From a virus, in the IMG/VR virus record IMGVR_UViG_3300045988_123906: a stretch of DNA of 64,000 nt; one strand, given 5' to 3'. This document shows, in pieces, positions 3,141-63,921 of this stretch; position 1 is the first letter of the stretch, and every line of letters starts with the position of its first letter. A program made the position numbers and the translations under genes. A model generated the notes under the pieces. It did no database searches, was not told the origin of the DNA, and saw nothing but the letters and a program-made list of their open reading frames with translations.

Positions 3141-4373
3141 ATGTACATTACATATCTGAATCCTCCTAAGACTCGGCAGATCACTTTTGATGAGATCCTT
3201 GCCGGTGTCCAGAATGTAGAAGCACTGCACTATGGCGGCAGCAACACATCTACAATGACCGTGTGCCGCAATGACTTAACCGCCAAACTTCGCGCTATCA
3301 CAAATGTTCCTGAGATGATCGAGAAGTTGGTGGACTACAACGTGAAATATGCGACGCTTGAATCCAGCGATATCCCGAGTCACTATTCTCACTTTGAGAT
3401 TCCAAAGAAATCTGGTGGCTGGCGACCCATTGATGCGCCAGATGAAACTCTTTCTGATGCACTGATCGAGCTGCGGGAACTGCTGAAGAGCTTTATGATC
3501 GCAGATTATCACACGAATGCTTTCGCATATATTCCCAATCGCAGCTTTATCGATGCGGTCCGTAAGCATCAGGCAGGTCACAATAAAACCGTCGTTGATG
3601 AGGCGACCGGCATGAAAAAGGTCGTCAATTATCAGAATCATTGGGCGGTCAAGTTCGACTTCCATGGTTTCTTTCCCAGTACGACACCGGATTTTCTGCT
3701 CGGCATGATGAGTGTGATCTATCCATTTGCTCTGATCATGCGGGATGCACATGGCCGAGATGAACTGGCAAAGGCGGTCAACCTGTGCTTTCTTCGCAAC
3801 GGCCTGCCGCAGGGAACTCCCATCAGTCCGTGGCTTACCAATGTGATGATGATTCCGTTTGACCACTGTATCACTCGCAAGCTGTGCTATGGCTACAAAG
3901 CAAAGGACGGCATCGATCGCGAGTTTACTTTCACACGATATGCAGATGATATCCTCATCAGCTGTTATCATCACTTTGACCCGATGGAAATTCAGCAGAT
4001 CATCATTGATGCGTTGAACTTCTTTCATGCGCCGTTTACTCTGAACGAAACGAAAACGCATTACGGCAACCGGCACTCCAGCAAGAACTGGTGTCTCGGC
4101 TTGATGTGGAATAAGGACAATCAGATCACGGTTGGCTGGCGCAATCTTAAAATGTTCCGTTCGGCTATGACGAACTATATCGATACAAAGCAGCATGGCA
4201 GGACCTGGGAGCTGGAAGATCTGCAAAAGTTCAATGGCAAGCTCAACTATTATCACATGGTCGAGCCTGAGGTGATCGACGAGCTGGTTCGTCGTTACAA
4301 TGCAAAGTTCGGCACTGATATTATTGCGATGCTCAAAGAAGATCTTCGTCCCAAAGAGGGCGTTGTTGCATAA
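3141..4373 (+). CDS. reverse transcriptase, retron/Abi/UG-like (not DGR-like)
   Basis: RT motifs 1-7: FEIPKKSGGWRPIDAP, AFAYIPNRS, KFDFHGFFPS, LPQGTPISPWLTN, FTRYADDILIS, LNETKTH, CLGLMWNKDNQITVG. Strong AAAGGAG RBS. Confidence 0.9.
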   Translation: MYITYLNPPKTRQITFDEILAGVQNVEALHYGGSNTSTMTVCRNDLTAKLRAITNVPEMIEKLVDYNVKYATLESSDIPSHYSHFEIPKKSGGWRPIDAPDETLSDALIELRELLKSFMIADYHTNAFAYIPNRSFIDAVRKHQAGHNKTVVDEATGMKKVVNYQNHWAVKFDFHGFFPSTTPDFLLGMMSVIYPFALIMRDAHGRDELAKAVNLCFLRNGLPQGTPISPWLTNVMMIPFDHCITRKLCYGYKAKDGIDREFTFTRYADDILISCYHHFDPMEIQQIIIDALNFFHAPFTLNETKTHYGNRHSSKNWCLGLMWNKDNQITVGWRNLKMFRSAMTNYIDTKQHGRTWELEDLQKFNGKLNYYHMVEPEVIDELVRRYNAKFGTDIIAMLKEDLRPKEGVVA

Positions 4374-22838: not shown

Positions 22839-22891
22839 CCTTTACCATTCACACTTTACACTGTCATTATGATGAATAGGAGGTGATTGAA

Positions 22892-23422
22892 ATGAGAAAG
22901 ACGATTGCAGCCATTATTGTAACCGGCGTTTATCTGCTGACAAATCTACTCGGCGTGGAAGCAGCTGGTCCGGTCGAGACATACCAGGGCTGGAGCGATG
23001 AACTAAAGTCGTATACGCAGTCTGTATGTGACGAATACAATGTCGATTATTCGTTGGCGCTCGGTGTGATCTATAACGAAAGCAGGTTCCAAAGTGGCCT
23101 GACTCACGTGAATTCAAACGGCACAGTTGATTACGGTCTGATGCAGGTCAACGAGGTCAACTTCGATTATCTCAACAAGACGCTTGGCGTTCGATCCATG
23201 TCTGAACTGCTGGATGATAAAACGGGCATCAGATGTGGTGTTCAGCTGCTGGCGTATCATAAGCAGTACACTGGCAACGATTCGGCGGCGCTTCTTCGCT
23301 ACCAGATCGGGGCAGGGAAGTACAAACAGTACCTGAGGAAAGGTCGGTACACAAACCAGACGCATCAACAGGTGCTTACATATCAGAGCGAACTCGCTTC
23401 TTATATGGATTCCTTACAGTAG
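22892..23422 (+). CDS. secreted lytic transglycosylase (SLT domain); ends at TAG
   Basis: Signal-like N-terminus. YNESRFQ (catalytic Glu) and DYGLMQVN. One of only three called genes ending in TAG. Confidence 0.75.
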   Translation: MRKTIAAIIVTGVYLLTNLLGVEAAGPVETYQGWSDELKSYTQSVCDEYNVDYSLALGVIYNESRFQSGLTHVNSNGTVDYGLMQVNEVNFDYLNKTLGVRSMSELLDDKTGIRCGVQLLAYHKQYTGNDSAALLRYQIGAGKYKQYLRKGRYTNQTHQQVLTYQSELASYMDSLQ

Positions 23423-24262: not shown

Positions 24263-24447
24263 TATTTAATCAGCGAAGCATATTCACTGTCTATCGAAAA
24301 CGACAAACTGTAATCGTTCGTTCTTTGCTGATGGTAGCCTGCTTGAACGAAATCAAATAATAAAAAAGCTAATAACCATTCATATAAAAGCTGGCCTCAT
24401 AAGCCGACAAGATGAAATCAAGTAAAATATTTGGTAATACTTGAATT

Positions 24448-24518
24448 TTTGGATTTGTCAAGAGGTTAAGACGCAAGCCTATAAGCTTGAAACGATGGTT
24501 CGAATCCATTATCCAAAA
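24448..24518 (+). tRNA. tRNA-like gene with an aberrant 6-nt anticodon loop (CTATAA); identity undetermined
   Basis: TTTGGAT/ATCCAAA acceptor and GATGG-TTCGAAT-CCATT T-arm are canonical. The CAAGC/GCTTG anticodon stem encloses only 6 nt. Confidence 0.45.
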
Positions 24519-24793
24519 AAATCGAATCAAGAGAAGGAGTTGTCCCAAGGGCCAACACGTAGTTGATTCAAATGTCTTGGAAAGGTTAACGGTTATTGAT
24601 TTAAAGGTTAAAGGTTGAAAGTTCAAAGCTTAAACTTCTAGCTAAAGATTAAACAGTAATGAATACAGGTCAAAGGTTTATAAAATCCATGGGCACAGGT
24701 TTGTGGATCGATTACATAAGTCCCGTTGTTTACCACATGGCTGGTAGATGGTGAGCGCCTTGGCAGGGGCGTAACAATACCTGCCGTTTATAT

Positions 24794-25720: not shown

Positions 25721-26512
25721 ATGAAAGAAAGAGTCTGTGGTATTTATAAAATCGAAAATAAAATAACGCATCAGGTATATATAGGGCAATCAAGATATAT
25801 AGCACGTAGATAGAGAGACCATCGTGTGAAAAGTCAAAGAAAAGACAATGAGTGGTTTCACAGTAGACTTTATACTGCTATGTATGGCCACCTTGACGAT
25901 TTTGATTTTTCGATAATTGAAGAATGCGATCAATCAAAATTAAATGAAAGAGAAATATATTGGATTGACTATTATAAAAGTACAGAGCCGATATACGGAT
26001 ACAATATTCTAATCGGCGGGGATGTAAGTGAACATAATAGAATATTAGGGCAAAATCAATTAAATGAAATAGCCAATCTTTTAGCGACAACAGATCTTAC
26101 TCAAACAGAGATTGCAAATAGATTTGGAGTAGGGCAGCGAACAGTAAGTAGTGTGAATACGGGATATTACAATCTTGACAAAAAGTATATTTTCCCGATC
26201 CGTGATAAAAAACATGTGACTGGGAAAATAAAAGAGCGAGTTGAACAAAAGAAAGCTAGGTTAAATGGACGGGATAAGGGTATGACCGGAATATGTTGCG
26301 ATTGCGGCGGTCCATGTTCTGCTAAAGCAAAACTTTGTCGCTCATGCATGGACAAAACCCGTATTTCAAAACGCCCTGATAAAGATACTTTATTAGGGCT
26401 AACTAAAACAATGACTGTTAGTGAAATAAGTCGCGAATTCAATGTTTCTAGTACTACGGTAAAAAAATGGTGCTCACATTATGGAATTATACCAGAAAGA
26501 AAATACAAGTGA
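25721..26512 (+). CDS. GIY-YIG homing endonuclease with in-frame TAG at 25811-25813
   Basis: MKERVCGIYKIENKITHQVYIGQSRYIARR*RDH... The GIY and YIG motifs lie before the TAG. The same frame continues with NEREIYWIDYYK, GYNILIGG, a Zn-finger CCDCGGPC..CRSC and a C-terminal HTH. Confidence 0.75.
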
Positions 26513-26540: not shown

Positions 26541-26613
26541 GCGCCTGTATCTTAATTGGTAAAGAAATGGGCTCTAAACCCAGGGTATCCGTGTTCGAAT
26601 CATGGCAGGCGTG
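26541..26613 (+). tRNA. amber suppressor tRNA, anticodon CUA (26574-26576)
   Basis: Canonical 73-nt cloverleaf. GCGCCTG/CAGGCGT acceptor (G1-U72), TCTT/AAGA D-stem with G18G19, anticodon loop CTCTAAA (U33, A37), CCGTG-TTCGAAT-CATGG T-arm, G73, encoded CCA. Confidence 0.8.
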
Positions 26614-26667
26614 CCAAACAAATTACATAACAGTATCCCTTATTTTATAGAAAGGAGATCGAACATT

Positions 26668-27421: not shown

Positions 27422-27649
27422 ATGAAAACAGAAGATTGGATCTCCGTAAAAACTGATTTGCCGAAAATTCCAGACGGCGAGATTTGGAGCAAAAATGTTT
27501 GGATTTATGATGAGAAATACGGACAGCAACAAGGGTATTTTACAACTGATGGGGTATGGTATGAGTTGAACGAGTGTCTTTGGCTAAAAAATGTTACACA
27601 TTGGATGCCTCTGCCAGAAGACCCGCCAAAGGAGAAAAATGAATCATGA
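27422..27649 (+). CDS. DUF551-like phage protein
   Basis: WISVKTDLP...VTHWMPLPEDPP pattern, remembered from DUF551 proteins. Confidence 0.55.
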   Translation: MKTEDWISVKTDLPKIPDGEIWSKNVWIYDEKYGQQQGYFTTDGVWYELNECLWLKNVTHWMPLPEDPPKEKNES

Positions 27650-28398
27650 AAACGACGAAGAAAGATTGGATCTATCGTGTGATTCTTCTGATTCTGTTGG
27701 CGATTATCTGGGACATTGGCGCGGCTTTGACTTCGCCAATTTTTGTTCCCCAGAAAGGCGCTGTGTTTCGGGAATTCTTCCTGTTGATCCAAAATGGAAC
27801 AATGTTGAAAGCATTCCGATATTCGCTGGTTCGCATTACGGTGGCAGCCGCTTTGAGTGCCGGCATCTCCATTCCTCTTGGCTGTCTGATGAAAATCTGT
27901 CATCCGCTTCAAAAGCTGCTCTATCCAGCAATTCGAGCAATGCGATTTTTGCCAGTCACTGCATTCTATCCACTGTTGACTATGTGGTTTGGAATCGGAG
28001 AGAAAATGAAGATTGCTTTCTTATTTGTAGCCAGCTTTGTGTTTATGCTTCCAAGCGTTCTGATTGCCATGGATGATGTCAGTGATGATGTGATCGAGGC
28101 GGCCAGCATTGATGGAGCAGGGAAGTTCAGCACAGTAACACGAATCGTCTTCCCAATCGCAGCGCCTTCCATCTGTCAGTCATTCGCCACAATGTATGCC
28201 ATCGGTTGGACCTATATCGCAGTGGCCGAGACAGTGAATGCGAAGTACGGTATTGGCTATCTGATCTATACTTCGTCCGCTCGTGGCCGTACATCTCTGG
28301 TGTTTGTTGGAATATTGGCGATTGTGATTTTCAGTATTCTGTTTGACTGGATCACAAATATCTGTATCAAGAAGATTTTTAAGTGGAAATTTTCATAA
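27646..28398 (+). CDS. ABC transporter permease (NitT/TauT, SsuC/TauC-like)
   Basis: Multi-pass hydrophobic protein with the EAA loop EAASIDGAGKFSTVTRIVFPIAAP. Confidence 0.8.
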   Translation: MKTTKKDWIYRVILLILLAIIWDIGAALTSPIFVPQKGAVFREFFLLIQNGTMLKAFRYSLVRITVAAALSAGISIPLGCLMKICHPLQKLLYPAIRAMRFLPVTAFYPLLTMWFGIGEKMKIAFLFVASFVFMLPSVLIAMDDVSDDVIEAASIDGAGKFSTVTRIVFPIAAPSICQSFATMYAIGWTYIAVAETVNAKYGIGYLIYTSSARGRTSLVFVGILAIVIFSILFDWITNICIKKIFKWKFS

Positions 28399-30281: not shown

Positions 30282-31862
30282 ATGTCTAAGTTCAAATTGA
30301 CTAAGGCTGGCCGTGCTGTTGTTGGCGTGGTTCTTGCGGTAGCTGTTGCTATTGGTGTCGTTGGCGGCATCAAGGGCGGTGTGATTAAGTTCGACAAGAA
30401 AAAGCCAACTGCATCTGATAAGCCTGCCACGAATGTCACCACGAATGCATCAACCGGCGACGACACGATCAATCTGTCTCTGGATGAATGGGCGGGATGG
30501 TTGAGCTGTATCACAGCAAATGGCGGTCTCACCACTCAGCCCGGTTCTGTGTTTGACCAGCTCGGCATCAAAGTGAATATCAATGTCATCAACGACGCTA
30601 CTGAGTCCAGCAATGCACTGATCTCTGGTGATCTGCAGGCCGCTGGTTATACTACGAACCGTGTCGCGTTCCTGTCTCAGAAGTTTACGGATGCCGGTAA
30701 GAATATCATCATGCCGGTGTTTACTAACTACAGCTATGGCGGAGACGGTATTATCGCTTCCACTCAGTTTGCAGATGTGAATTCGTGGGTCAATGCCAAG
30801 ATCGGCGTTCCTGAATTCTCTGAGGCCGAAACCTTGGTCGCTTGGTTTGTCAATAATTCCAACCTGTCCGATGCGGATAAGGCAACCATTATGAACAACC
30901 TGATCATGTTCGGTACGGCAGATGATACTGCTAAAGCATACTTTGCTGGTCAGATCGATGTTGCTGCAACATGGGAGCCGTACCTGACTCAGGCTAAGAC
31001 CTATACCAACAGCACCGTTGTTTTTGATACCAAGTCTTCTTCTTCTCTGGTCATGGATGGCATTGTGTTTGATGCCGATTGGGCAGCAGCTCACGAAGAT
31101 ACTGTCAAGAAGTTCGTCAAGGGTATTCTGATGTCTTATGATCAGCCCATCAATTACGACGCAGCTCGTGAAGTGTTCCCGATGTATTCTACTTCCAGTG
31201 ATGCAGATATCGACGCTACTTACGCCAATGCCAAGATGGCCAGCTGGAAGGACAATTACAACATTCTAAACGATACTGCTCCCATGATCTATAACCAGAT
31301 GTGCGATATCTGGGAGGCTCTGGGCGAAACCGTCAATCGCGGCCTTGTGGACACGATTTTTGATACCACTTATATTGACGCTCTGAAAGGTGATTTTAAG
31401 TCTACTTCCGCCGCAAATGCCACCACAAAGGTGACTGTAAGTGACGAAACCCGTGCCAATATCACCCAGCAGGTCACTGGCAATCTGGATTATGATTCCA
31501 TGCTGAGCAAGACCGCCAATGTAACATTTGTCCCGGATTCTTCTGTGTTCACCGATCAGGCCAGCGCAGCCTCTGTTCTGGATGATTTCGTAAATATCGC
31601 CAAGACTCTGGATGGCACAATGATCGTTATCAACGGCAATATCAATGCGGACACTCAGACCGAGTTCGGTGTGCAGCTCTCTGCAAATCGTGCTCAGACT
31701 GTTGCCAACTATCTGGCTTCTCAGGGTATTGATCAGAATCGACTGATTATTACAGGCTCTGGCAATGCAAAGTATCAGGCCGACAAGGCTGCTGGTGCTC
31801 TGAAGCCGGATGCAAGCGTATACCAGTCTACCGATATCAGCTTTATGCGAATCGAGAACTGA
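30282..31862 (+). CDS. membrane-anchored ABC substrate-binding-like domain (NMT1/TauA type) fused to a C-terminal OmpA/MotB peptidoglycan-binding domain
   Basis: N-terminal TM. INLSLDEWAGW...GYTTNRVAF is SBP-like. The C-terminus LSANRAQTVANYLASQGIDQNRLIITGSGNAKY is the OmpA-like motif. Confidence 0.65.
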   Translation: MSKFKLTKAGRAVVGVVLAVAVAIGVVGGIKGGVIKFDKKKPTASDKPATNVTTNASTGDDTINLSLDEWAGWLSCITANGGLTTQPGSVFDQLGIKVNINVINDATESSNALISGDLQAAGYTTNRVAFLSQKFTDAGKNIIMPVFTNYSYGGDGIIASTQFADVNSWVNAKIGVPEFSEAETLVAWFVNNSNLSDADKATIMNNLIMFGTADDTAKAYFAGQIDVAATWEPYLTQAKTYTNSTVVFDTKSSSSLVMDGIVFDADWAAAHEDTVKKFVKGILMSYDQPINYDAAREVFPMYSTSSDADIDATYANAKMASWKDNYNILNDTAPMIYNQMCDIWEALGETVNRGLVDTIFDTTYIDALKGDFKSTSAANATTKVTVSDETRANITQQVTGNLDYDSMLSKTANVTFVPDSSVFTDQASAASVLDDFVNIAKTLDGTMIVINGNINADTQTEFGVQLSANRAQTVANYLASQGIDQNRLIITGSGNAKYQADKAAGALKPDASVYQSTDISFMRIEN

Positions 31863-55499: not shown

Positions 55500-55717
55500 A
55501 AGAACAGACTATTCCAATTGACCAACAGCTTGTATATAACGTAGAAGAAGTAGCGACACTCTTGAAAACCACGCGCCCTGTGGTATACTCTTTAATAGAA
55601 AAGGGCTATTTGCCAAGTATCGTGTTGGGTCGTCGTAAAGTAACCCGTAAAGCACTTCTTGAGTTTCTTGATAAGAATGCCAACACTGACTTTGGAGAAC
55701 TTTTAAGAGCCGGTTGA
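55496..55717 (+). CDS. xis: excisionase-family HTH DNA-binding protein
   Basis: YNVEEVATLLKTTRPVVYSLIEKGYLPSIVLGRRKV (MerR/Xis-type HTH), next to attP and int. Confidence 0.7.
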   Translation: MKEQTIPIDQQLVYNVEEVATLLKTTRPVVYSLIEKGYLPSIVLGRRKVTRKALLEFLDKNANTDFGELLRAG

Positions 55718-55722
55718 TTGGC

Positions 55723-56149
55723 TTGCCCACAAAATTGCCCACATTTGAATTCTCGTGGGCAAAACGTGGGCAAAATACGCATCTTTTTGCGTTAAGTAAC
55801 GATGCTACGACAATTCACTATTGCAGGCAAAGGATGAGGCCCGTCATGGCCGCGGCTTCGAGGGCCTGCTGAAGCGCTACTTCAACGTGGAGCTGTAACG
55901 AAAAAAGCTAAAAAATACAATTGCAGAACGCAAGTTTTGCCGTTGGTCATAGGATAATCTGTTCAAATCTGTTCTTAACTGTTTTTATCGGTTGAGAACA
56001 GATTTTTTTGTTATGTGGGCAAATCGTGGGCAAAGACCTTTGATTTGACCAGTTTTGACCTCTTTTTCAAACCTTGCCCACAAAAAGCTTGAAAGTTGGC
56101 TTGTGGCCTAGAAAAATCATGGGTGGGAAAATTCGCCATTGTGGGCAAA
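55723..56149. repeat. attP region: eight copies of a 9-bp arm-type motif GTGGGCAAA / TTGCCCAC flanking a GC-rich core
   Basis: TTGCCCAC at 55723, 55735, 56074. GTGGGCAAA at 55755, 55766, 56015, 56026, 56141. The two tandem pairs are spaced 11 bp. Confidence 0.7.
55969..56009 (+). terminator. rho-independent terminator following a host-gene-like 3' fragment in the attP core
   Basis: CTGTTCTTAAC-loop-GTTGAGAACAG (11 bp) followed by TTTTTTT. Confidence 0.65.
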
Positions 56150-56222
56150 TCGTTGACACCAAACATCGGCCATGATAGAATCAAGTCAGATGAATAGACT
56201 AAGTGAGCAAAGGAGTGATATC

Positions 56223-57536
56223 ATGGGTACTATTAGAAAAAGAGGCGACAAGTGGTCGTATCGAGTTGACCTTGGCGCTGTCAATGGTAAGCGTGTGCAG
56301 AAAGAGAAAGGCGGCTTTGCCACAAAGAAAGAAGCGGCTGCCGCAATGACTATTGTAGAAAATGAACTGCTTAAAACAGGTGAATATGTAGAAGCAGAAC
56401 AAAAAATTACAATGCAACAACTATACGAAGAATTCATTGAAGAGGAGGCTCCGCTGACTCGAAAATATACAACCATTGTTCGCTACAAGTCACTTTATAG
56501 AAATCAAATAGAGCCTGAATTTGCTTCAAACTATCTGTATCAAATTACAACTGAACGAATTCAAAAATTCATCAACTATAAAGTTAAAGAAGAGAAAAAT
56601 AAAATGTATGGTCATTCTGAACAAGGGCTAAGTGCGGCTTATGTTCGCAGTGTTTATAATTTCCTTCTTGTGTTATTTGCTCTTGCAAAGAAAAAGAAGT
56701 ATATCAAAACCAACCCAATGGACGATGTGACTCCGCCAAAAGACTATCGTGCGTATGGCAAGGAGATAAGATATTATACTCAGCCACAAATCGAATGGAT
56801 GGATAAACGATTTCAGTCAACAAATCTATACACGGCTTACCAACTTGGTTTATATCTCGGTGTTCGTGTTGGAGAGTGCTTTGCACTGCGATTCAGCGAT
56901 ATAGACTGGGACAATAAAACCATTCAAGTTGGGTGTCAGCTTCAATTCCAAGATAAAGTATGGAGCCTTGTCTATCCTAAAACACCAAACTCTTTGCGCA
57001 GTATAAAAATGAATCAAAAACTAATCGACTATCTGAAAGCCCTTCAAAATAAATACGCAGAGAATAAAGAGCTGTTTGGTGCTGGCTGGAAGGGAAGTAA
57101 CAAGGTCATGGATCGTCGTCCAGAGTTTTATGGGAAGCCAGCTGTGTTAATTACCGTTGATGATTTTATCAATGTTAAACCAAACGGCGAAATGTATGTG
57201 ACCAGCTCTGATAAAACTCTTGCTCGCATTTGTAAGAGAGAAGCTGGATTTGATTTTAAATTTCACTATCTCCGTCACACCCATGCTACCATTCTTGCAA
57301 GTAAGGGAGTCAATCCTCGATATGTTATGGAACGTTTAGGGCATGGCAAGATTGATGTTACTCTTAAATACTATACTCATATCACAGATGAGATGCACGA
57401 ACAAGTTGCAGCTATTATGGATACGGTTATGGGAGAACAGGAGGTCTTTGATAGAAATAATAAAATCAAGGACGGAGAAGATATTTCTGAAATGGCAATT
57501 CTTCCGGATACAGAAGATAATGATGAAAAAGAATGA
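56223..57536 (+). CDS. int: phage integrase, tyrosine recombinase
   Basis: Arm-binding N-terminus MGTIRKRGDKWSYRVDLG. Catalytic GVRVGECFALRFSDID, HYLRHTHAT, LGHGKIDVTLKYYTH. Confidence 0.9.
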   Translation: MGTIRKRGDKWSYRVDLGAVNGKRVQKEKGGFATKKEAAAAMTIVENELLKTGEYVEAEQKITMQQLYEEFIEEEAPLTRKYTTIVRYKSLYRNQIEPEFASNYLYQITTERIQKFINYKVKEEKNKMYGHSEQGLSAAYVRSVYNFLLVLFALAKKKKYIKTNPMDDVTPPKDYRAYGKEIRYYTQPQIEWMDKRFQSTNLYTAYQLGLYLGVRVGECFALRFSDIDWDNKTIQVGCQLQFQDKVWSLVYPKTPNSLRSIKMNQKLIDYLKALQNKYAENKELFGAGWKGSNKVMDRRPEFYGKPAVLITVDDFINVKPNGEMYVTSSDKTLARICKREAGFDFKFHYLRHTHATILASKGVNPRYVMERLGHGKIDVTLKYYTHITDEMHEQVAAIMDTVMGEQEVFDRNNKIKDGEDISEMAILPDTEDNDEKE

Positions 57537-59373: not shown

Positions 59374-59610
59374 TTATATCAGCTCAATATCACTCGGCTC
59401 TACATAGCCCGACACATTCACTGAGATTGGGTACTTGCCGATGCGGCTCTCAAGATTCGTCACTCGATAACGCCCGTTCACAAGTTTCCCATCAAAAATA
59501 TACCATTCACCAGAGCGGCGCATACCGCAGTGTGTTTGGCTGTTTGAAAATAATATTCCGTCTAATTTAATTTTGTCTCCTGCACGAAATGTATTCTGGT
59601 TATCTGCCAT
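59374..59610 (-). CDS. small SH3-like/cell-wall-binding-like protein downstream of the endolysin (tentative)
   Basis: 78 aa from ATG 59610 (TGATG overlap with the endolysin stop). Beta-rich GEWYIFDGKLVNGRYRVTN. Confidence 0.45.
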   Translation of the reverse strand: MADNQNTFRAGDKIKLDGILFSNSQTHCGMRRSGEWYIFDGKLVNGRYRVTNLESRIGKYPISVNVSGYVEPSDIELI

Positions 59611-60257
59611 CAAAACGAACCCCATGTAGCAGGCCCACAGATGCCATCTGCAGCCAGCCCGTGTCCTTTCTGATACTCAATCAGCTTCGCCTTGGTATTC
59701 GCGCCAAAAATGCCGTCAGCCTTAACACCAAGATGCCGTTGCAGTACAGTTACAGCATAAGAAGCGCCATTCATAGCGTCTTTCGCACCCTGTCTGATAG
59801 TCGGCATAAGATTTGCTACACTGATATATTTCGTGCCAGATTTACTGATCCAGCGGCTGCGTGTGGTGCGCACATCAACATGAACAAAGCCGCTCGTAAG
59901 CACAGCACGGCTATAATATCCAATACCACCACTCTTTGCAAAGTATGGCAGGGAAGATACATACAGTGCGATCCGAATCGGGTCAACGCCTTTGATCCAG
60001 ATATCAGCGGCAGTTCCTTTACAATGTTGGCTACGAGGGCTTCCACCGATTGAGATGTTATAGGCAGGAGTACGATACCCAGAGTTGATGTGGACAGGAG
60101 CGCCAAAGTGAGCGCGGATCTGTTCCAGCACCTCAATCAGCTGACTATCAACCAGAACTGTATCACTCTTATCGGAGCAGGCGAACTCATAGACGGAAAA
60201 ATGAGCCGAAACCTTTTTGTTCTAGTCCTTCTTCATAGAGTATGTAATAACACCCAT
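59610..60257 (-). CDS. endolysin: peptidase M15 (YcbK/VanY-like) plus PG_binding_1 domain, with in-frame TAG at codon 12 (60222-60224)
   Basis: MGVITYSMKKD*NKKVSAHFSVYEFACSD...INSGYRTPAYNISIGGSPRSQHCKGTAADI...HVDV, C-terminal DGIFGANT..LAADGICGPAT. The conserved FSxxEFxC block lies between the TAG and the first alternative start (GTG 60131). Confidence 0.8.
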
Positions 60258-60269
60258 TTCATCACACCT

Positions 60270-60590
60270 TCAATTCTTTTTGAACTCGTCCTTGATTTTA
60301 TCGTTCTGGATGTCCATCTCTTTGACAGCGGCCTCAATCATGGTCTCAATGGTCGGAGTGATCTTCACACCCAGACGCTCCAGAGCTTCCATAACGTATT
60401 TCTTCTTGTCGGCTTTTTCGATAGCGCCGGTTGCGCCCAGCTTCTCTGCAGCACGAACAGCGATCTGCACCAGCTTGTATACGCCGATCTTTTTCAGATA
60501 GGGAATACCATAGGCCATAAAGGCAGTACCAGCGCCAGCAATAACAAGGCGGACGATAACAGAAACCAGCTCATTGATAATATCCATCAT
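60270..60590 (-). CDS. holin (LL-H-like, tentative)
   Basis: GGAGG RBS then ATGATG 60590. One N-terminal TM, then AVRAAEKLGATGAIEKADKKKYV...IEAAVKEM, as remembered for LL-H-family holins. Directly upstream of the endolysin. Confidence 0.55.
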   Translation of the reverse strand: MMDIINELVSVIVRLVIAGAGTAFMAYGIPYLKKIGVYKLVQIAVRAAEKLGATGAIEKADKKKYVMEALERLGVKITPTIETMIEAAVKEMDIQNDKIKDEFKKN

Positions 60591-60634: not shown

Positions 60635-61138
60635 TTAGTTCGTAATATTCTTTGTGTTGTTCTGACCATCGATCAAATAGTTCTCAAGTGCAGCCTTGGC
60701 CTCTTTCATTGGCTCGATCGCGTTGCCGTCGATGCCGTGACTGAGGAGTGCAAGCAGAGCCTTCATGGTGACATTGTTGCCTTGCTCGCTGTGACTGATA
60801 CGCTGTTCTGATTCGAGAATTTTACGGTCATGTACTTCCAGCGTGATACTGTTTTCTTTCTGGTGCTCTTCTAATGAGACCAGCTTGGATTGAAACAAGT
60901 CGAGCCTGTCTTTATCTGCACCTAGTTTTCTATTGATCTTCTCAAGCTCTGCATCGTGGGCATTCAGTCGCTCGTTCTGCTTGTCATCCGGGGCTTTCGC
61001 ATGATTGATTGCCTTGATGATAACAGCAATAGCGGCTGAAATAGCAGTGATGCCACCACAGATGCTCAGTAACATGGTCTACAGCTGCTGTATGGTAAAA
61101 GAATAGACGTGAGGTGCGGCATTCAAACTTCCTATCAT
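60635..61138 (-). CDS. membrane-anchored coiled-coil protein, possibly starting at ATG 61138 and reading through TAG 61079-61081
   Basis: ATG 61138 overlaps the upstream TGA (ATGA) and has GGTGGTGAG upstream. The track start, ATG 61075, has no SD and sits two codons after an in-frame TAG. Confidence 0.5.
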
Positions 61139-61441: not shown

Positions 61442-61897
61442 TTATGTGCGTTTTCCGCCATCACATACAGTACGCCAGTGATAATGCGGGCGCTCTTCAT
61501 GGAATAGAACATAACGCAGCCAGTCATCAACAAAAATGCAAAGCAGCGCAAGGAAGAACCATAACACTGTAAACGGCAGGCAAATTTGGCCCAACAGATT
61601 GAACGGTAGGGAAGAGTAGTCCCAAATATGCAGGCCAAGCATCAAATTCAGTGGGACACCCACCACAAGCTCCATAGCAGTCACAAAGAGCGCTCCAATA
61701 CCAGCCTGTTTCCAGAGCGGCATTTCCCAGGGAATATAATTGTTCAGCCCACCGATCACAAGAAAGCAGATGCCACCGACAACGGCCATCGTCCAATGAG
61801 AGTGCCCGCGCCACAGAATCTCAATGCAATAATAAAGGCACCCTCCGATCAAAAAGAGGATGCCGCATTTGATTAGTTCACGAAGTTTGTTGCTCAT
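61442..61897 (-). CDS. multi-pass membrane protein (DUF1113-like, tentative)
   Basis: Four hydrophobic helices. CIEILWRGHSHWTM and HIWDYSSLPFNLLGQICL resemble that family as I remember it. Confidence 0.55.
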   Translation of the reverse strand: MSNKLRELIKCGILFLIGGCLYYCIEILWRGHSHWTMAVVGGICFLVIGGLNNYIPWEMPLWKQAGIGALFVTAMELVVGVPLNLMLGLHIWDYSSLPFNLLGQICLPFTVLWFFLALLCIFVDDWLRYVLFHEERPHYHWRTVCDGGKRT

Positions 61898-62379
61898 TCG
61901 GTCACATCCTTATCTGCGTTAAGATCCAGATATTCTGCCAGTACAGCATCATAACTGATTTCAATAGCGTCTACCTCTGCACTGGTCGTACATGCCTTGA
62001 TGCCAATCTCTAATTCCTGCTGATGAGAGACAAAGGGCTTCACATACACACCAATCGCCAGTGCTAAAGCGGCCAGATCGTCATAAGTCCACTCCACACA
62101 TTCATCGCCGGTAGAATTCCATGTCAGTTTAAAAGGCTGCCCGGCGGCTGTAGAGATCTGATATAGGGCAAGATTGCTTGTAAGAAGAGCTTGCTTCTCG
62201 CTGGTGACACTGTAATACTTGCCATCTGTCCACTGAATTGGATGCAGAGACAGGAAGGTGGAGAGAGCGATTTTTGACTGGGATATTTTACTTGTTTTGA
62301 GAGATTCAAGCTTCATATCCTCTGAAGGAACTGGTTCGTGCTGTTGTACTTCATAACAGTCATCTAAATCAGCAATCAT
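61894..62379 (-). CDS. tail-fiber-associated protein (DUF4376-like, tentative)
   Basis: 161 aa. The ATG immediately follows the TAG of the upstream ORF, in the same frame. Confidence 0.55.
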   Translation of the reverse strand: MIADLDDCYEVQQHEPVPSEDMKLESLKTSKISQSKIALSTFLSLHPIQWTDGKYYSVTSEKQALLTSNLALYQISTAAGQPFKLTWNSTGDECVEWTYDDLAALALAIGVYVKPFVSHQQELEIGIKACTTSAEVDAIEISYDAVLAEYLDLNADKDVTE

Positions 62380-62616
62380 CTAGTAATAATCACCAGACAC
62401 CGCAGTCTCGTTATGTTTTGTCACGGCGGCAACAACAACACTATACACGTCACATTCTGCTTGTATTTCAACGGGCTTCTTTACCTGATAGCCAATTATA
62501 ATATCTTCAATAGAGGGAAGAATAGGTGGTTCTTCTGCTGGCTTGCTAGGGGTTTCGCTTGGTGCTTCTGTCTCCTCATTCTTTTCGATTTCTTTCATTT
62601 CATCCATATATATCAC
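62380..62616 (-). CDS. hypothetical protein ending in TAG, in frame with the next ORF
   Basis: AGAGGTG RBS then ATG 62616. The stop TAG (62380-62382) abuts ATG 62379. Confidence 0.5.
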   Translation of the reverse strand: MIYMDEMKEIEKNEETEAPSETPSKPAEEPPILPSIEDIIIGYQVKKPVEIQAECDVYSVVVAAVTKHNETAVSGDYY

Positions 62617-62619
62617 CTC

Positions 62620-63921
62620 TTACTTCCATCGTCCAATTGCAATATATTCCATCGTATTATTTTCACTTCGCAGAATAACACCAGTGGTTGATTTACCGCC
62701 AATTGCATAGTTTTCCCAGCTGCTACTTTTCCATTCACTCATACCAATGCGATAATCTGTGTTGGCAAAAGCTGCGCCAAAACTAGAAAATGAGTTATTG
62801 CCACATGAACCCCAGCATATCTGAGTTCCATCATCGAAACGAACGTAATTCTAGCCAGAGGCGGAGACGCCATTTCCTAACCAACTTTTCAAAATATCCT
62901 TATCAACGTCCTTGATCTTCGTGCCATTGTCTGTGTAGCCTGCAATATAGTTTAAATTTGAAGTTGTAAGACCAGCGCCAGCGAAACCGATTCGAATGGT
63001 TCTGCCACTATCGTTGTAATCCGTAACTCCAGTGGTAGCGATGGTAGCGTTCCCGTCTATATTCGCTGTAATTGTAGCAGGTTGTCCTGTCGCTTTAATG
63101 ACATCTAACGTACCATCGTCATAAGCAACCATACGAATATTGTAATCTTTGTAATTATCACCAATATCTTCTGTATGGAAATCAACGTATTTACCAACTT
63201 CTATAACACCATCATCACCAACTGCAGGAATTACATTCCAATAACCTGCACTTCTCGAACTGACATCGTAACCTTTCAATTTCATTGCATTCAGCGCATC
63301 ACCACCCGGTTCGGTAGAACCAGCGTAATTATGTGTATGTCCAACAGCAGCATATAACGTATCCGTCCTACTTTTGATCCAGTTCCATAAAGCAGCCAGT
63401 GGTCTACGGGTATACTTCGTGGTAGCACTACCATCATCACTTGTAACTATAGCGCCAACCATAACAGTGTCAGCATCTTCAACAGCGTCAGCACTCGTCT
63501 CCAATGTATCTACCAATTCACCCAAGTCATGCGTATGATCGGCAGGGGAGACACCCTCTGCGGCCAACTCTTCACTCGTCATTTTATCTGCTGTCGCTAC
63601 ATGGCCTGTATTATCAACACTGATGCGATATAGTCCAGCCTGTTTTGCTTCGTATACCGGGTGAGTATAATTGTTAGCTCCAGCTTCAATGCCATCCAGC
63701 TTTGCTTTATCAGCCGAGCTCATCAAACCATTGTTTTCAGTAGTAGCTATATTAGGGTCGCCTAAACTAGCAAGCTTCTTTTTTTCTTCTGTTGTATAGT
63801 CGTTGCTAGACAGGCCGAATCCTTCGATTTTATCTACCTTTGTACCGAGCATAGCCTCGATCGTTTTCCAGAGGTGAACCGCACCAGCTCTGTCTAGCCA
63901 ACTTTTTTTTTCATCGTTCAT
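62620..63921 (-). CDS. tail fiber / receptor-binding protein with in-frame TAG (62851-62853) before the C-terminal domain
   Basis: N-terminal LSSNDYTTEEKKKL / LMSSADKAKLDGIEAGAN repeats. After the TAG the frame stays open for 76 codons (NYVRFDDGTQICWGS...FGAAFANT...TTGVILRS...EYIAIGRWK) to TAA 62620-62622, with no start codon near its beginning. Confidence 0.75.

What the first reader, a model, noticed from the sequence alone, without database searches (positions are those of the whole stretch)
59610..60257. Endolysin gated by an in-frame TAG at codon 12
ATG 60257 has a GAAGGTG RBS and sits 10 nt after the holin stop. Codon 12 is TAG (60222-60224). The same frame continues with NKKVSAHFSVYEFACSDKSDTVLVDSQLIEVLEQIRAHFGAPVHINSGYR. 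The FSxxEFxC block belongs to the M15 (YcbK-like) peptidase fold. No ATG, GTG or TTG lies between the TAG and GTG 60131, which would delete that block. Full-length lysin therefore appears to need TAG decoding. That would tie lysis timing to the suppressor tRNA.
Basis: partly seen in the sequence, partly recalled or inferred. Interest (0 to 1): 0.75.

Follow-up and report, generated by a model that had tools for sequence, protein, structure and literature searches.

The report
Phage lysin with amber-encoded tryptophan
The lysis enzyme of this common gut prophage carries an in-frame TAG that is most likely read as tryptophan by the phage's own tRNA; it is one of many such TAGs found only in late genes, a variant of phage stop-codon recoding that current pipelines mistranslate as glutamine.

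Summary
The minus-strand ORF from ATG 60257 to TGA 59610 is an intact M15/LAS zinc-peptidase plus PG_binding_1 endolysin, 12 nt after a holin. Codon 12 is TAG (60224-60222). No ATG, GTG or TTG follows before codon 43, and a start there would delete invariant, structured residues.

The full-length lysin does need amber decoding, and a tRNA(CUA) lies at 26541-26616 on the same replicon. But this is not a dedicated gate:
- Among 89 copies of the gene, codon 12 is TAG in 44 and TGG in 45.
- Other copies carry TAG at Trp136 or Trp212. None has an in-frame TGA or TAA.
- In late genes, 57 of 186 reference TGG sites have TAG in other genomes; 0 of 179 CAG sites do.
- In the early/replication block, 0 of 60 TGG sites do.
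- Genomes with tRNA(CUA) have 4-13 sense TAGs in the last 10 kb of late genes. Genomes with tRNA-Trp(CCA) in that slot have essentially none.

So TAG behaves as a late-gene-only synonym of Trp, not Gln. Four late genes in the window use it. Timing control remains an inference and matches the published Borges model. Verdict: new variant of a known kind.

The parts
59610..60257 (-). Endolysin CDS of 215 codons plus TGA: an M15_3/LAS zinc peptidase (residues 18-128; Zn ligands H78, D85, H126) followed by PG_binding_1 (residues 178-212)
60222..60224 (-). In-frame TAG at codon 12 of the lysin, inferred to be read as Trp. It is TGG in 45 of 89 homologous copies
60265..60271 (-). Shine-Dalgarno-like GAAGGTG, 7 nt upstream of ATG 60257, overlapping the holin stop codon
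   Evidence: read from the sequence. Conserved in the close clade
60270..60590 (-). Holin (106 aa, Phage_holin_6_1) with no in-frame TAG. The exact protein occurs in 4106 blocks of the public collection
60635..61138 (-). p167, a membrane/coiled-coil protein just upstream of the holin. Its ATG overlaps the upstream stop codon (ATGA). It has an in-frame TAG at codon 20 (61081-61079), which is TAG in 50 and TGG in 5 relatives
61894..62616 (-). p240 (weak DUF4376 match), with an in-frame TAG at codon 79 (62382-62380). It is TGG in 17 of 18 aligned relatives
62620..63921 (-). Tail-fibre-like protein (433 aa) with an in-frame TAG at codon 357 (62853-62851). It is TAG in 13 and TGG in 3 relatives
26541..26616 (+). 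tRNA with anticodon CUA (amber suppressor). It has a G1.U72 pair, G73, anticodon loop CU-CUA-AA and an encoded CCA end. It occupies the slot that holds tRNA-Trp(CCA) in some relatives
25721..26512 (+). GIY-YIG homing-endonuclease gene immediately upstream of the suppressor tRNA. It is the only non-late gene with a convincing in-frame TAG (codon 31, 25811-25813), and that TAG is conserved in the two relatives that carry the insertion (each fetched twice)
22883..23422 (+). SLT lytic-transglycosylase gene that ends in TAG (23420-23422). It is the one believable case in the window of TAG used as a true stop
56172..57536 (+). Tyrosine integrase. Homology to integrated copies ends at about 55826, the attachment junction, which shows the window is in the excised arrangement

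Best explanation
The lysin gene is intact, and its codon 12 is an amber codon translated as tryptophan by the phage-encoded, tRNA-Trp-like suppressor tRNA(CUA) at 26541-26616. In this family of 100-150 kb temperate gut phages, which integrate into spore-forming Firmicutes, TAG serves as a second tryptophan codon. It is used only in the late (virion and lysis) module, at roughly 8-15% of Trp positions, and it interchanges freely with TGG between closely related genomes.

Four late genes in the window depend on it: the tail-fibre-like gene, p240, p167 and the lysin. Without the charged suppressor, lysin translation stops after 11 residues.

The steps shown here are that the gene is intact, that a start at ATG 60257 is needed, that TAG is equivalent to Trp, that this use is restricted to late genes, and that it co-occurs with the tRNA.

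The inferred steps are these. The tRNA lies in the plus-strand early/middle block. Late-gene translation, lysis included, would therefore depend on earlier expression of the phage's own tRNA. That would act as a translational interlock, keeping late proteins silent in lysogens and early in infection.
For: 1. The gene is intact and needs its N-terminus.
2. Among 89 copies, codon 12 is TAG in 44 and TGG in 45. The only other internal stops are TAG at W136 and W212, both at least 90% conserved Trp positions in the family. No copy has an in-frame TGA or TAA.
3. At codon level in late genes, reference TGG sites have TAG as essentially their only alternative: 15/24, 18/50, 17/44, 3/12 and 4/56 sites across five references. 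CAG sites alternate with CAA and never with TAG (0 of 179).
4. In the early/replication block, 0 of 60 TGG sites and 0 of 2613 comparisons show TAG, against 85 of 1106 comparisons in late genes (Fisher p about 1e-10 by sites).
5. All 9 TAG-bearing lysins with a known tRNA region come from genomes with tRNA(CUA).
6. The 17 genomes with tRNA(CUA) have 4-13 sense TAGs in the last 10.6 kb of late genes. The 3 genomes with only tRNA-Trp(CCA) have 0, 0 and 2, and the one of those two that could be examined lies in a frame that does not look coding (128/721 versus 2/131 TAG/TGG, p=7e-7).
7. tRNA(CUA) occupies the same slot, between tRNA-Lys and tRNA-Ser, as tRNA-Trp(CCA) in relatives. It shares that tRNA's D-arm, anticodon-loop flanks and G73. 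Trp is the nearest class for all three suppressor families.
8. The tRNA and the lysin are on one replicon.
9. The only 'Gln' evidence, Q12 in P0001, is a table-15 translation of a TAG.
Against: - There is no direct protein or aminoacylation evidence. The residue identity is inferred from substitution patterns.
- The window's own suppressor variant resembles tRNA-Trp only marginally better than other classes (0.675 versus 0.654).
- Its weak 1:72 pair, G73 and U35 are features that favour GlnRS in E. coli (from my own knowledge of the su7 suppressor).
- C35 is a TrpRS identity element, so charging with Trp may be inefficient.
- TAG still ends the SLT gene, so suppression cannot be complete without producing read-through products.
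- tRNA presence or absence was scored in only about 19.5 kb per genome.
- The genomes compared are related, so site counts are not independent events.
- The timing of tRNA and late-gene expression is unknown.
Confidence: 0.8

Rival explanations
1. Dedicated lysis gate. The TAG at codon 12 has been specifically selected so that lysin synthesis, and therefore lysis timing, is set by the accumulation of the suppressor tRNA.
For: In this window the TAG sits at codon 12, so failure is cheap, and there is no bypass start. In the close clade TAG is the majority allele at lysin codon 12 (44 of 54). It is also the majority allele at codon 20 of p167, on the other side of the holin (50 of 55). Both frequencies are far above the roughly 8% average for Trp sites. 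Borges et al. report that lysis genes are biased toward recoded stops.
Against: Near-identical phages carry TGG instead. The roughly 80%-identity clade is all TGG at this codon, yet most of its copies still have TAGs elsewhere in late genes. TAG also occurs at codons 136 and 212 of the lysin and in tail-fibre genes, so dependence on the tRNA is module-wide. The high allele frequency can be explained by shared ancestry within a 96-100% identical clade. Codon 16 is GTG in most TAG-bearing copies.
Confidence: 0.25
2. TAG is read as glutamine (genetic code 15), as in crAss-like, Lak and phAss-1 phages and as assumed by the gene callers.
For: Code 15 is the reported norm for TAG-recoded phages. Database proteins such as P0001 carry Q at this position. 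The tRNA has a weak 1:72 pair, G73 and U35, which are features compatible with GlnRS (read; own knowledge).
Against: Across 179 late-gene CAG sites, none ever has TAG, whereas 57 of 186 TGG sites do. TAG replaces Trp at W136 and W212, which are at least 90% conserved. P0001's Q is a translation artefact of a TAG. The suppressor does not resemble the phage's own tRNA-Gln(UUG).
Confidence: 0.07
3. The functional lysin is a shorter product that does not need the TAG. It would be initiated at GTG codon 43 (60131), or in relatives at GTG codon 16.
For: The Zn ligands H78, D85 and H126 and the PG-binding domain all lie downstream of codon 43. Gene callers report 173-aa and 200-aa products. Codon 16 is GTG in 78 of 89 copies, with a GAAGGA motif 13 nt upstream.
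Against: In this window codon 16 is GTT. A codon-43 start deletes the invariant residues F20, E24, F25, D32 and L40, along with strands and helices modelled with confidence. The residues upstream of the TAG (TYSMKKD) are conserved at protein level out to about 45% identity. GTG at codon 16 is also present in all-TGG clades, so it is an ordinary Val codon rather than an evolved bypass.
Confidence: 0.05
4. The TAG is a nonsense mutation in a decaying prophage, or a sequencing or assembly error.
For: Many copies sit inside bacterial contigs as prophages, and TGG to TAG is a single transition.
Against: The same TAG appears in 44 independent assemblies. In 89 copies there are no frameshifts and no TGA or TAA. 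Only Trp codons are affected, only in late genes, and only in genomes with tRNA(CUA). The window itself is in the excised arrangement also seen in viral contigs.
Confidence: 0.03

Closest known systems
Stop-codon-recoded gut phages and prophages (Borges et al., bioRxiv 10.1101/2021.08.26.457843, later Nat Microbiol 2022; crAss-like, Lak, Garnet and Topaz clades)
   Same: Both have a standard-code host and a phage-encoded tRNA(CUA). In both, in-frame TAGs are concentrated in structural and lysis genes, the integrase and early genes are compatible with the standard code, and prophage forms exist. Both carry the proposed role of gating late or lytic expression.
   Different: Those phages are reported as TAG=Gln, and the authors state that they observed only TAG-to-Gln and TGA-to-Trp. 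Here TAG behaves as Trp. Usage is sparse (about 8-15% of late Trp codons, 4 genes in 4.8 kb) and polymorphic between near-identical genomes. The gain in coding density is therefore small, and such phages can escape density-based detection.
Trp-isotype tRNA-Sup(CUA) genes noted in gut phages (Kienbeck et al. 2024, PMC10879173)
   Same: That study predicted a Trp isotype for 19.4% of 180 phage tRNA-Sup genes and mentioned 'rarely reported code 32'.
   Different: It was an isotype prediction only, and the authors still concluded code 15. No codon-level evidence was given. No HDV-like or theta ribozyme was detected next to the tRNA here.
NCBI genetic code 32 (Balanophoraceae plastid, TAG=Trp)
   Same: TAG is read as tryptophan (my own knowledge of the code table; 'UAG to Trp' was found only in that plant literature).
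   Different: That is a genome-wide organellar reassignment. Here the use is confined to one temporal module of a virus, depends on a virus-encoded tRNA in a standard-code cell, and TAG still ends at least one gene.
E. coli su7 (supU), an amber suppressor derived from tRNA-Trp by a CCA-to-CUA anticodon change
   Same: It is a Trp-type tRNA body with a CUA anticodon (su7 from my own knowledge).
   Different: su7 is largely mischarged with Gln by GlnRS. The substitution pattern here argues for Trp-equivalence and against Gln. The acceptor stem also differs from the phage tRNA-Trp (G1.U72 and C2-G71, against A1-U72 and G2.U71).
M15/LAS zinc-peptidase endolysins and the Streptomyces albus Zn D-Ala-D-Ala carboxypeptidase (PDB 1LBU); also VanY, Ply500, LysB4 and the T5 endolysin
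   Same: They share the catalytic fold and the H-x6-D...H zinc site, and 1LBU also has a PG_binding_1 module.
   Different: The domain order is reversed relative to 1LBU. Sequence identity is low (18%). The bond cleaved has not been determined.

Membership tests
Peptidase_M15_3 / LAS zinc-peptidase endolysin | A match to the family profile above the curated threshold that covers the whole domain | tested here: met
   PF08291: 78.5 bits against a cutoff of 23.2, profile positions 1-108 of 108, residues 18-128
Peptidase_M15_3 / LAS zinc-peptidase endolysin | Zinc ligands H-x6-D and a downstream H | tested here: met
   H78, D85, H126 and D128 are invariant in 50 homologues. The fold matches 1LBU, VanY and Ply500
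Peptidase_M15_3 / LAS zinc-peptidase endolysin | Lysis-cassette context (adjacent holin, cell-wall-binding module) | tested here: met
   A Phage_holin_6_1 gene ends 12 nt upstream, and there is a C-terminal PG_binding_1 domain
Peptidase_M15_3 / LAS zinc-peptidase endolysin | Peptidoglycan-hydrolysing activity | not testable with these tools
   Needs a zymogram or lysis assay
Stop-codon-recoded (alternatively coded) phage, TAG type | In-frame TAGs inside conserved genes, with homology on both sides | tested here: met
   Seen in the lysin, p167, p240, the tail-fibre gene and the GIY-YIG gene
Stop-codon-recoded (alternatively coded) phage, TAG type | A phage-encoded suppressor tRNA with anticodon CUA | tested here: met
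   tRNA at 26541-26616, 57 bits against Rfam tRNA. Present in 41 of the 60 related tRNA regions scanned
Stop-codon-recoded (alternatively coded) phage, TAG type | Recoded codons enriched in late or lysis genes and absent from early or lysogeny genes | tested here: met
   TGG/TAG interchange occurs at 15 of 24 late sites against 0 of 60 early sites. The integrase has no TAG
Stop-codon-recoded (alternatively coded) phage, TAG type | TAG depleted as a terminator | tested here: met
   Among the TAG-ending ORFs, only the SLT gene is a believable gene. Stop usage is TAA 46 and TGA 38
Stop-codon-recoded (alternatively coded) phage, TAG type | A marked gain in coding density under the alternative code (the usual detection criterion) | tested here: inconclusive
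   Coverage by ORFs of at least 100 codons rises only from 0.892 to 0.936 when TAG is read as sense. TGA or TAA read as sense give larger, spurious gains. TAG use is too sparse for this criterion
Genetic code 15 (TAG=Gln) | TAG aligns with, or interchanges with, glutamine codons | tested here: not met
   No CAG site of 179 shows TAG. TAG sites alternate with TGG. The Q in database proteins is a table-15 artefact
Genetic code 32-like (TAG=Trp) | TAG aligns with, or interchanges with, tryptophan codons | tested here: met
   57 of 186 TGG sites have TAG alternatives, and TAG sites revert to TGG. W136 and W212 are conserved Trp positions
Genetic code 32-like (TAG=Trp) | Reassignment applies genome-wide and TAG no longer terminates | tested here: not met
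   No TAG at early-gene Trp sites. The SLT gene ends in TAG in the window and 29 relatives
Genetic code 32-like (TAG=Trp) | Trp is actually inserted at UAG (by protein or aminoacylation evidence) | not testable with these tools
   Needs mass spectrometry or charging assays

The most novel reading that the evidence does not exclude
This widespread family of 100-150 kb temperate Firmicute phages runs a module-restricted genetic code in which UAG means tryptophan. A suppressor that arose from, and in many genomes replaced, the phage's own tRNA-Trp gene enforces it. The amber codons near the 5' ends of the genes flanking the holin (lysin codon 12 and p167 codon 20) would be selected interlocks that keep lysis proteins untranslatable in lysogens until the phage's tRNA cluster is expressed. 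This would be the first well-supported amber-to-Trp code in a virus. It would also be a code caught in transit, with TAG and TGG still polymorphic at the same sites.
Probability: 0.3. Interest if true: 0.85.

Novelty: new variant of a known kind. Interest (0 to 1): 0.66.

Why it matters
- **Extends the known recodings.** Phage stop-codon recoding has been described as TAG-to-Gln or TGA-to-Trp. A common human-gut prophage family in which TAG behaves as Trp would add a third kind. The holin's exact protein is on record in 4106 blocks of public assemblies, which shows how common the family is.
- **Current pipelines get it wrong.** They either fragment these genes (lysin calls of 173, 196 and 200 aa) or translate them with table 15. 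The latter has put a wrong residue into thousands of database sequences (the P0001 cluster has 2075 members).
- **A natural experiment.** Usage is sparse, polymorphic and limited to late genes. That makes it a natural case of how a codon reassignment starts and spreads under a virus-encoded tRNA.
- **Directly testable.** Near-isogenic TAG and TGG alleles already exist, so the idea that recoding locks lytic genes in lysogens can be tested directly.
- **A possible tool.** A natural amber suppressor that appears to insert Trp in Firmicutes could also be useful experimentally.

Tried and rejected
- **Annotated relatives.** Megablast and blastn of the lysis region against 50,697 GenBank phage records gave one unannotated partial hit, MT835573.1 at 77% identity. 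There is no annotated relative.
- **Host identification.** A scan of the GTDB representative genomes with the lysin returned only two distant hits, from Odoribacter and Sedimenticolaceae. The host remains 'spore-forming Firmicute', based on the Spo0A and SpoIVB genes flanking integrated copies.
- **phAss-1 (PMC10607447).** It looked like a candidate relative because of its size and source, but it is a different group that reads TAG as Gln.
- **Q12 in P0001.** It looked like evidence for Gln, but the DNA has TAG.
- **Crude ORF-based TAG counts.** These were noisy because true TAG stops fuse adjacent ORFs. I replaced them with codon-level alignment.
- **Ribozyme next to the suppressor tRNA.** None was found at the gathering threshold or at E<=1.
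- **Promoter and terminator scans.** Scans around the lysis cassette and the tRNA gave nothing decisive.
- **Base after the TAG.** There is only a weak purine excess (77% against 68%, p=0.02, sites not independent), so I treat it as suggestive only.
- **Hypermutation or a diversity-generating retroelement.** I considered these as the source of TGG/TAG variation and rejected them. TGA never appears at Trp sites, the early genes are untouched, and the variable sites are spread over many genes and show only the two states.
- **tRNA sequence alone.** It does not settle the amino acid for the window's suppressor variant.
Full report
**Observation**

On the minus strand, ATG 60257 opens a 215-codon frame that ends at TGA 59612-59610. 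Codon 12 is TAG (60224-60222), and the next ATG, GTG or TTG in frame is GTG 60131, which is codon 43. GAAGGTG lies 7 nt upstream of the ATG and overlaps the stop codon of the preceding gene. That gene matches Phage_holin_6_1, and the gap between the two genes is 12 nt. With the TAG read through, the protein matches Peptidase_M15_3 over the whole profile (residues 18-128, E=5e-22) and PG_binding_1 (residues 178-212). A tRNA with anticodon CUA lies at 26541-26616.

**Is the upstream part really coding?**

A search of 5.8 billion proteins found 551 relatives. Nearly all of the full-length ones are 214-217 aa and begin at the equivalent of ATG 60257. In an alignment of 50 of them:
- M1, Y6, S7 and S17 are at least 90% conserved.
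- F20, E24, F25, D32 and L40 are invariant, and all lie upstream of codon 43.
- The zinc ligands H78, D85 and H126 are invariant.

An AlphaFold model of a homologue that has a native Trp at position 12 (pLDDT 95.5, pTM 0.90) has a strand at residues 3-7, a helix at 22-25, a strand at 33-37 and a helix at 38-51. A start at codon 43 would remove or cut all of these. The nearest solved structures are LAS/M15 zinc peptidases: 1LBU, VanY, Ply500, LysB4 and the T5 endolysin.

**What the element is**

The holin's exact sequence is on record in 4106 blocks of public assemblies. In the longest contigs (340-670 kb) it sits in a prophage flanked by an integrase and host genes that include Spo0A and SpoIVB. 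The host is therefore a spore-forming Firmicute. IMG/VR holds more than 150 related viral contigs of about 100-150 kb.

The rest of the window encodes replication and nucleotide-metabolism proteins, a cluster of 10 tRNAs, and an integrase at 56172-57536. I identified the replication and nucleotide-metabolism functions by reading the translations; they were not run against Pfam.

Homology between the window and integrated copies stops at about 55826. In a viral contig (L020) it continues through the integrase into the FolD/Nrd block, exactly as in the window. The window is therefore the excised arrangement, and the tRNA(CUA) and the lysin are on one replicon. One 150-kb contig holds both the identical tRNA and the lysin.

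**TAG at codon 12 across the family**

Among 89 copies of the gene, codon 12 is TAG in 44 and TGG in 45. The clade at 96% identity or more is mostly TAG, and the clade at about 80% identity is all TGG. Other copies have additional TAGs at codon 136 (4 copies) and codon 212 (6 copies). Both are Trp positions conserved in at least 90% of the family. No copy has an in-frame TGA, an in-frame TAA or a frameshift.

One abundant database cluster (P0001, 2075 members) shows Q at position 12. Its DNA has TAG there, so the Q comes from a table-15 translation.

Codon 16 is GTG in 78 copies but GTT in the window and 7 others. This window has no internal start that could bypass the TAG, whereas most relatives have a possible weak one.

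**What TAG means**

I aligned late genes codon by codon across 89 genomes.
- Reference TGG sites have TAG as essentially their only alternative: 15 of 24 sites with the window as reference, 18 of 50 and 17 of 44 with two prophage copies, and 57 of 186 summed over five references.
- TGA and TAA never appear at these sites.
- Reference CAG sites alternate with CAA and never with TAG (0 of 179).
- Reference TAG sites alternate with TGG.

TAG therefore behaves toward TGG as CAA behaves toward CAG, that is, as a synonym. All four in-frame TAGs in the window's late genes follow this pattern:

| Gene | Codon | TAG in relatives | TGG in relatives |
|---|---|---|---|
| Lysin | 12 | 43 | 45 |
| p167 | 20 | 50 | 5 |
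| p240 | 79 | 1 | 17 |
| Tail-fibre-like | 357 | 13 | 3 |

The start of p167 at ATG 61138 overlaps the upstream stop codon (ATGA), which supports the longer reading of that gene.

**Restriction to late genes**

I ran the same test on 20.5 kb of the early/replication block against about 60 related loci. TAG appeared at 0 of 60 TGG sites and in 0 of 2613 comparisons. In late genes it appeared in 85 of 1106 comparisons (Fisher p about 1e-10 by sites).

The only convincing non-late TAG is codon 31 of a GIY-YIG homing-endonuclease gene inserted just upstream of the suppressor tRNA. That TAG is conserved in the two relatives that carry the insertion, each of which was fetched twice.

TAG is almost unused as a terminator. 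The one believable case is the SLT gene at 22883-23422, and its TAG stop is conserved in 29 relatives.

**The tRNA**

In 60 related tRNA regions, the slot between tRNA-Lys and tRNA-Ser(UGA) holds a tRNA(CUA), a tRNA-Trp(CCA), both, or neither. The CUA tRNAs fall into three sequence families. All three share a G1.U72 pair, G73 and the loop CU-CUA-AA. Their nearest class among all phage tRNAs is Trp. The match is clear for the commonest family (0.82 against 0.72 over the 5' half) but only marginal for the window's variant. None resembles the phage's tRNA-Gln(UUG).

**Co-variation of the tRNA with sense TAGs**

- All 9 TAG-bearing lysins with a known tRNA region come from genomes with tRNA(CUA).
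- The 17 genomes with tRNA(CUA) have 4-13 sense TAGs in the last 10.6 kb of late genes.
- The three genomes with only tRNA-Trp(CCA) have 0, 0 and 2. The one of those two that could be examined lies in a frame that does not look coding.

**Mechanism**

Shown here: the lysin is intact, it needs its N-terminus, and in this window it cannot be made without reading UAG. UAG is evolutionarily equivalent to Trp. This holds only in the late module and only in genomes with tRNA(CUA).

Inferred: host TrpRS charges the suppressor. The tRNA is transcribed with the plus-strand early/middle block. Late proteins, including tail fibres, p167 and the lysin, therefore become translatable only after the phage's tRNA cluster is expressed. 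The 78-aa gene whose ATG overlaps the lysin stop codon (TGATG) may be coupled to the lysin's translation and so depend on this too. Such an arrangement would silence leaky late transcripts in lysogens.

This is the model Borges et al. proposed for recoded phages and prophages. It is not specific to codon 12 of the lysin, where TGG and TAG alleles coexist among near-identical phages.

**Comparison with what is known**

Borges et al. state that they observed only TAG-to-Gln and TGA-to-Trp. The phAss-1 and crAss-like phages are annotated with code 15. Kienbeck et al. predicted a Trp isotype for 19.4% of 180 phage tRNA-Sup genes but still concluded code 15. Text searches for UAG or TAG read as tryptophan returned only parasitic-plant plastid work.

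The present case is thus a new variant of a known kind: amber-to-Trp, sparse, polymorphic and restricted to one module.

**Caveats**

- There is no protein or charging evidence.
- The genomes compared are related, so the counts are not independent events.
- The tRNA state was scored in about 19.5 kb per genome only.
- The host species is unknown.
- The +4 context effect is weak.
- No promoter, terminator or ribozyme signal clarifies timing.

Noticed in passing
window 24447-24519 (+), and the same slot in L093-L154: ARAGORN reports a tRNA-like gene here with an abnormal anticodon loop ('tRNA-???', anticodon 'at'). At the same slot relatives carry different anticodons: ATA, ATG, GCC, GAA, TAA or TGA. 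The anticodon of this gene is unusually variable between near-identical phages.
   Followed up: no
window 25721-26512 (+): A GIY-YIG homing-endonuclease gene lies between tRNA-Lys and the suppressor tRNA. The insertion is present in some relatives and absent or truncated in others. It has a conserved in-frame TAG at codon 31, inside the catalytic domain, at the position where I-TevI has Trp (RWKRH; my own knowledge). It is the only non-late gene that appears to need the suppressor.
   Followed up: partly
window 22883-23422 (+): The SLT lytic-transglycosylase gene ends in TAG, about 70 nt before tRNA-Thr. If the suppressor reads this TAG, translation would run through the tRNA gene and stay in frame with the next gene as far as 24262. 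The TAG stop is conserved in 29 relatives that carry the suppressor.
   Followed up: partly
relatives L093, L125, L142, L146, L147, L149, L152, L155 (tRNA(CUA) genes): In the commonest suppressor family, the variable region contains a T-run whose length differs between genomes (TTTT up to TTTTTTTT). This gives tRNAs of 77-81 nt. It could be a slippage-prone tract that affects tRNA function.
   Followed up: no
window 27646-28398 and 30282-31862 (+): The phage encodes an ABC-transporter permease (BPD_transp_1) and a 526-aa protein that combines an NMT1/THI5-like substrate-binding domain with a C-terminal OmpA domain. Both lie within the tRNA cluster region, which is unusual cargo for a phage.
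   Followed up: no
window 3141-4373 (+): A 410-aa protein contains a YADD motif typical of reverse transcriptases (read from the translation; not run against Pfam). I considered it and rejected it as the source of the TAG/TGG variation.
   Followed up: no
window about 55717-56172, junction near 55826: Homology to integrated prophage copies ends at about 55826, just upstream of the integrase gene. This marks the attachment site and shows the window is the excised or circular form. Another lineage (L002, L008) lacks this integrase and lies next to the ribosomal protein L31 gene instead of the rubrerythrin locus.
   Followed up: partly
database proteins P0001 (2075 members) and the 167-aa call in L157-L159: Public protein sets hold table-15 translations of these genes, with Q at TAG positions. 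Other pipelines report truncated lysins of 173, 196 or 200 aa, or miss the gene altogether (L001, L006). If TAG is Trp, these entries carry a wrong residue.
   Followed up: yes
window 59374-59610 (-): The ATG of a 78-aa gene of unknown function overlaps the lysin stop codon (TGATG). This suggests translational coupling to the lysin. Its expression may therefore also depend on read-through of the TAG at codon 12.
   Followed up: no
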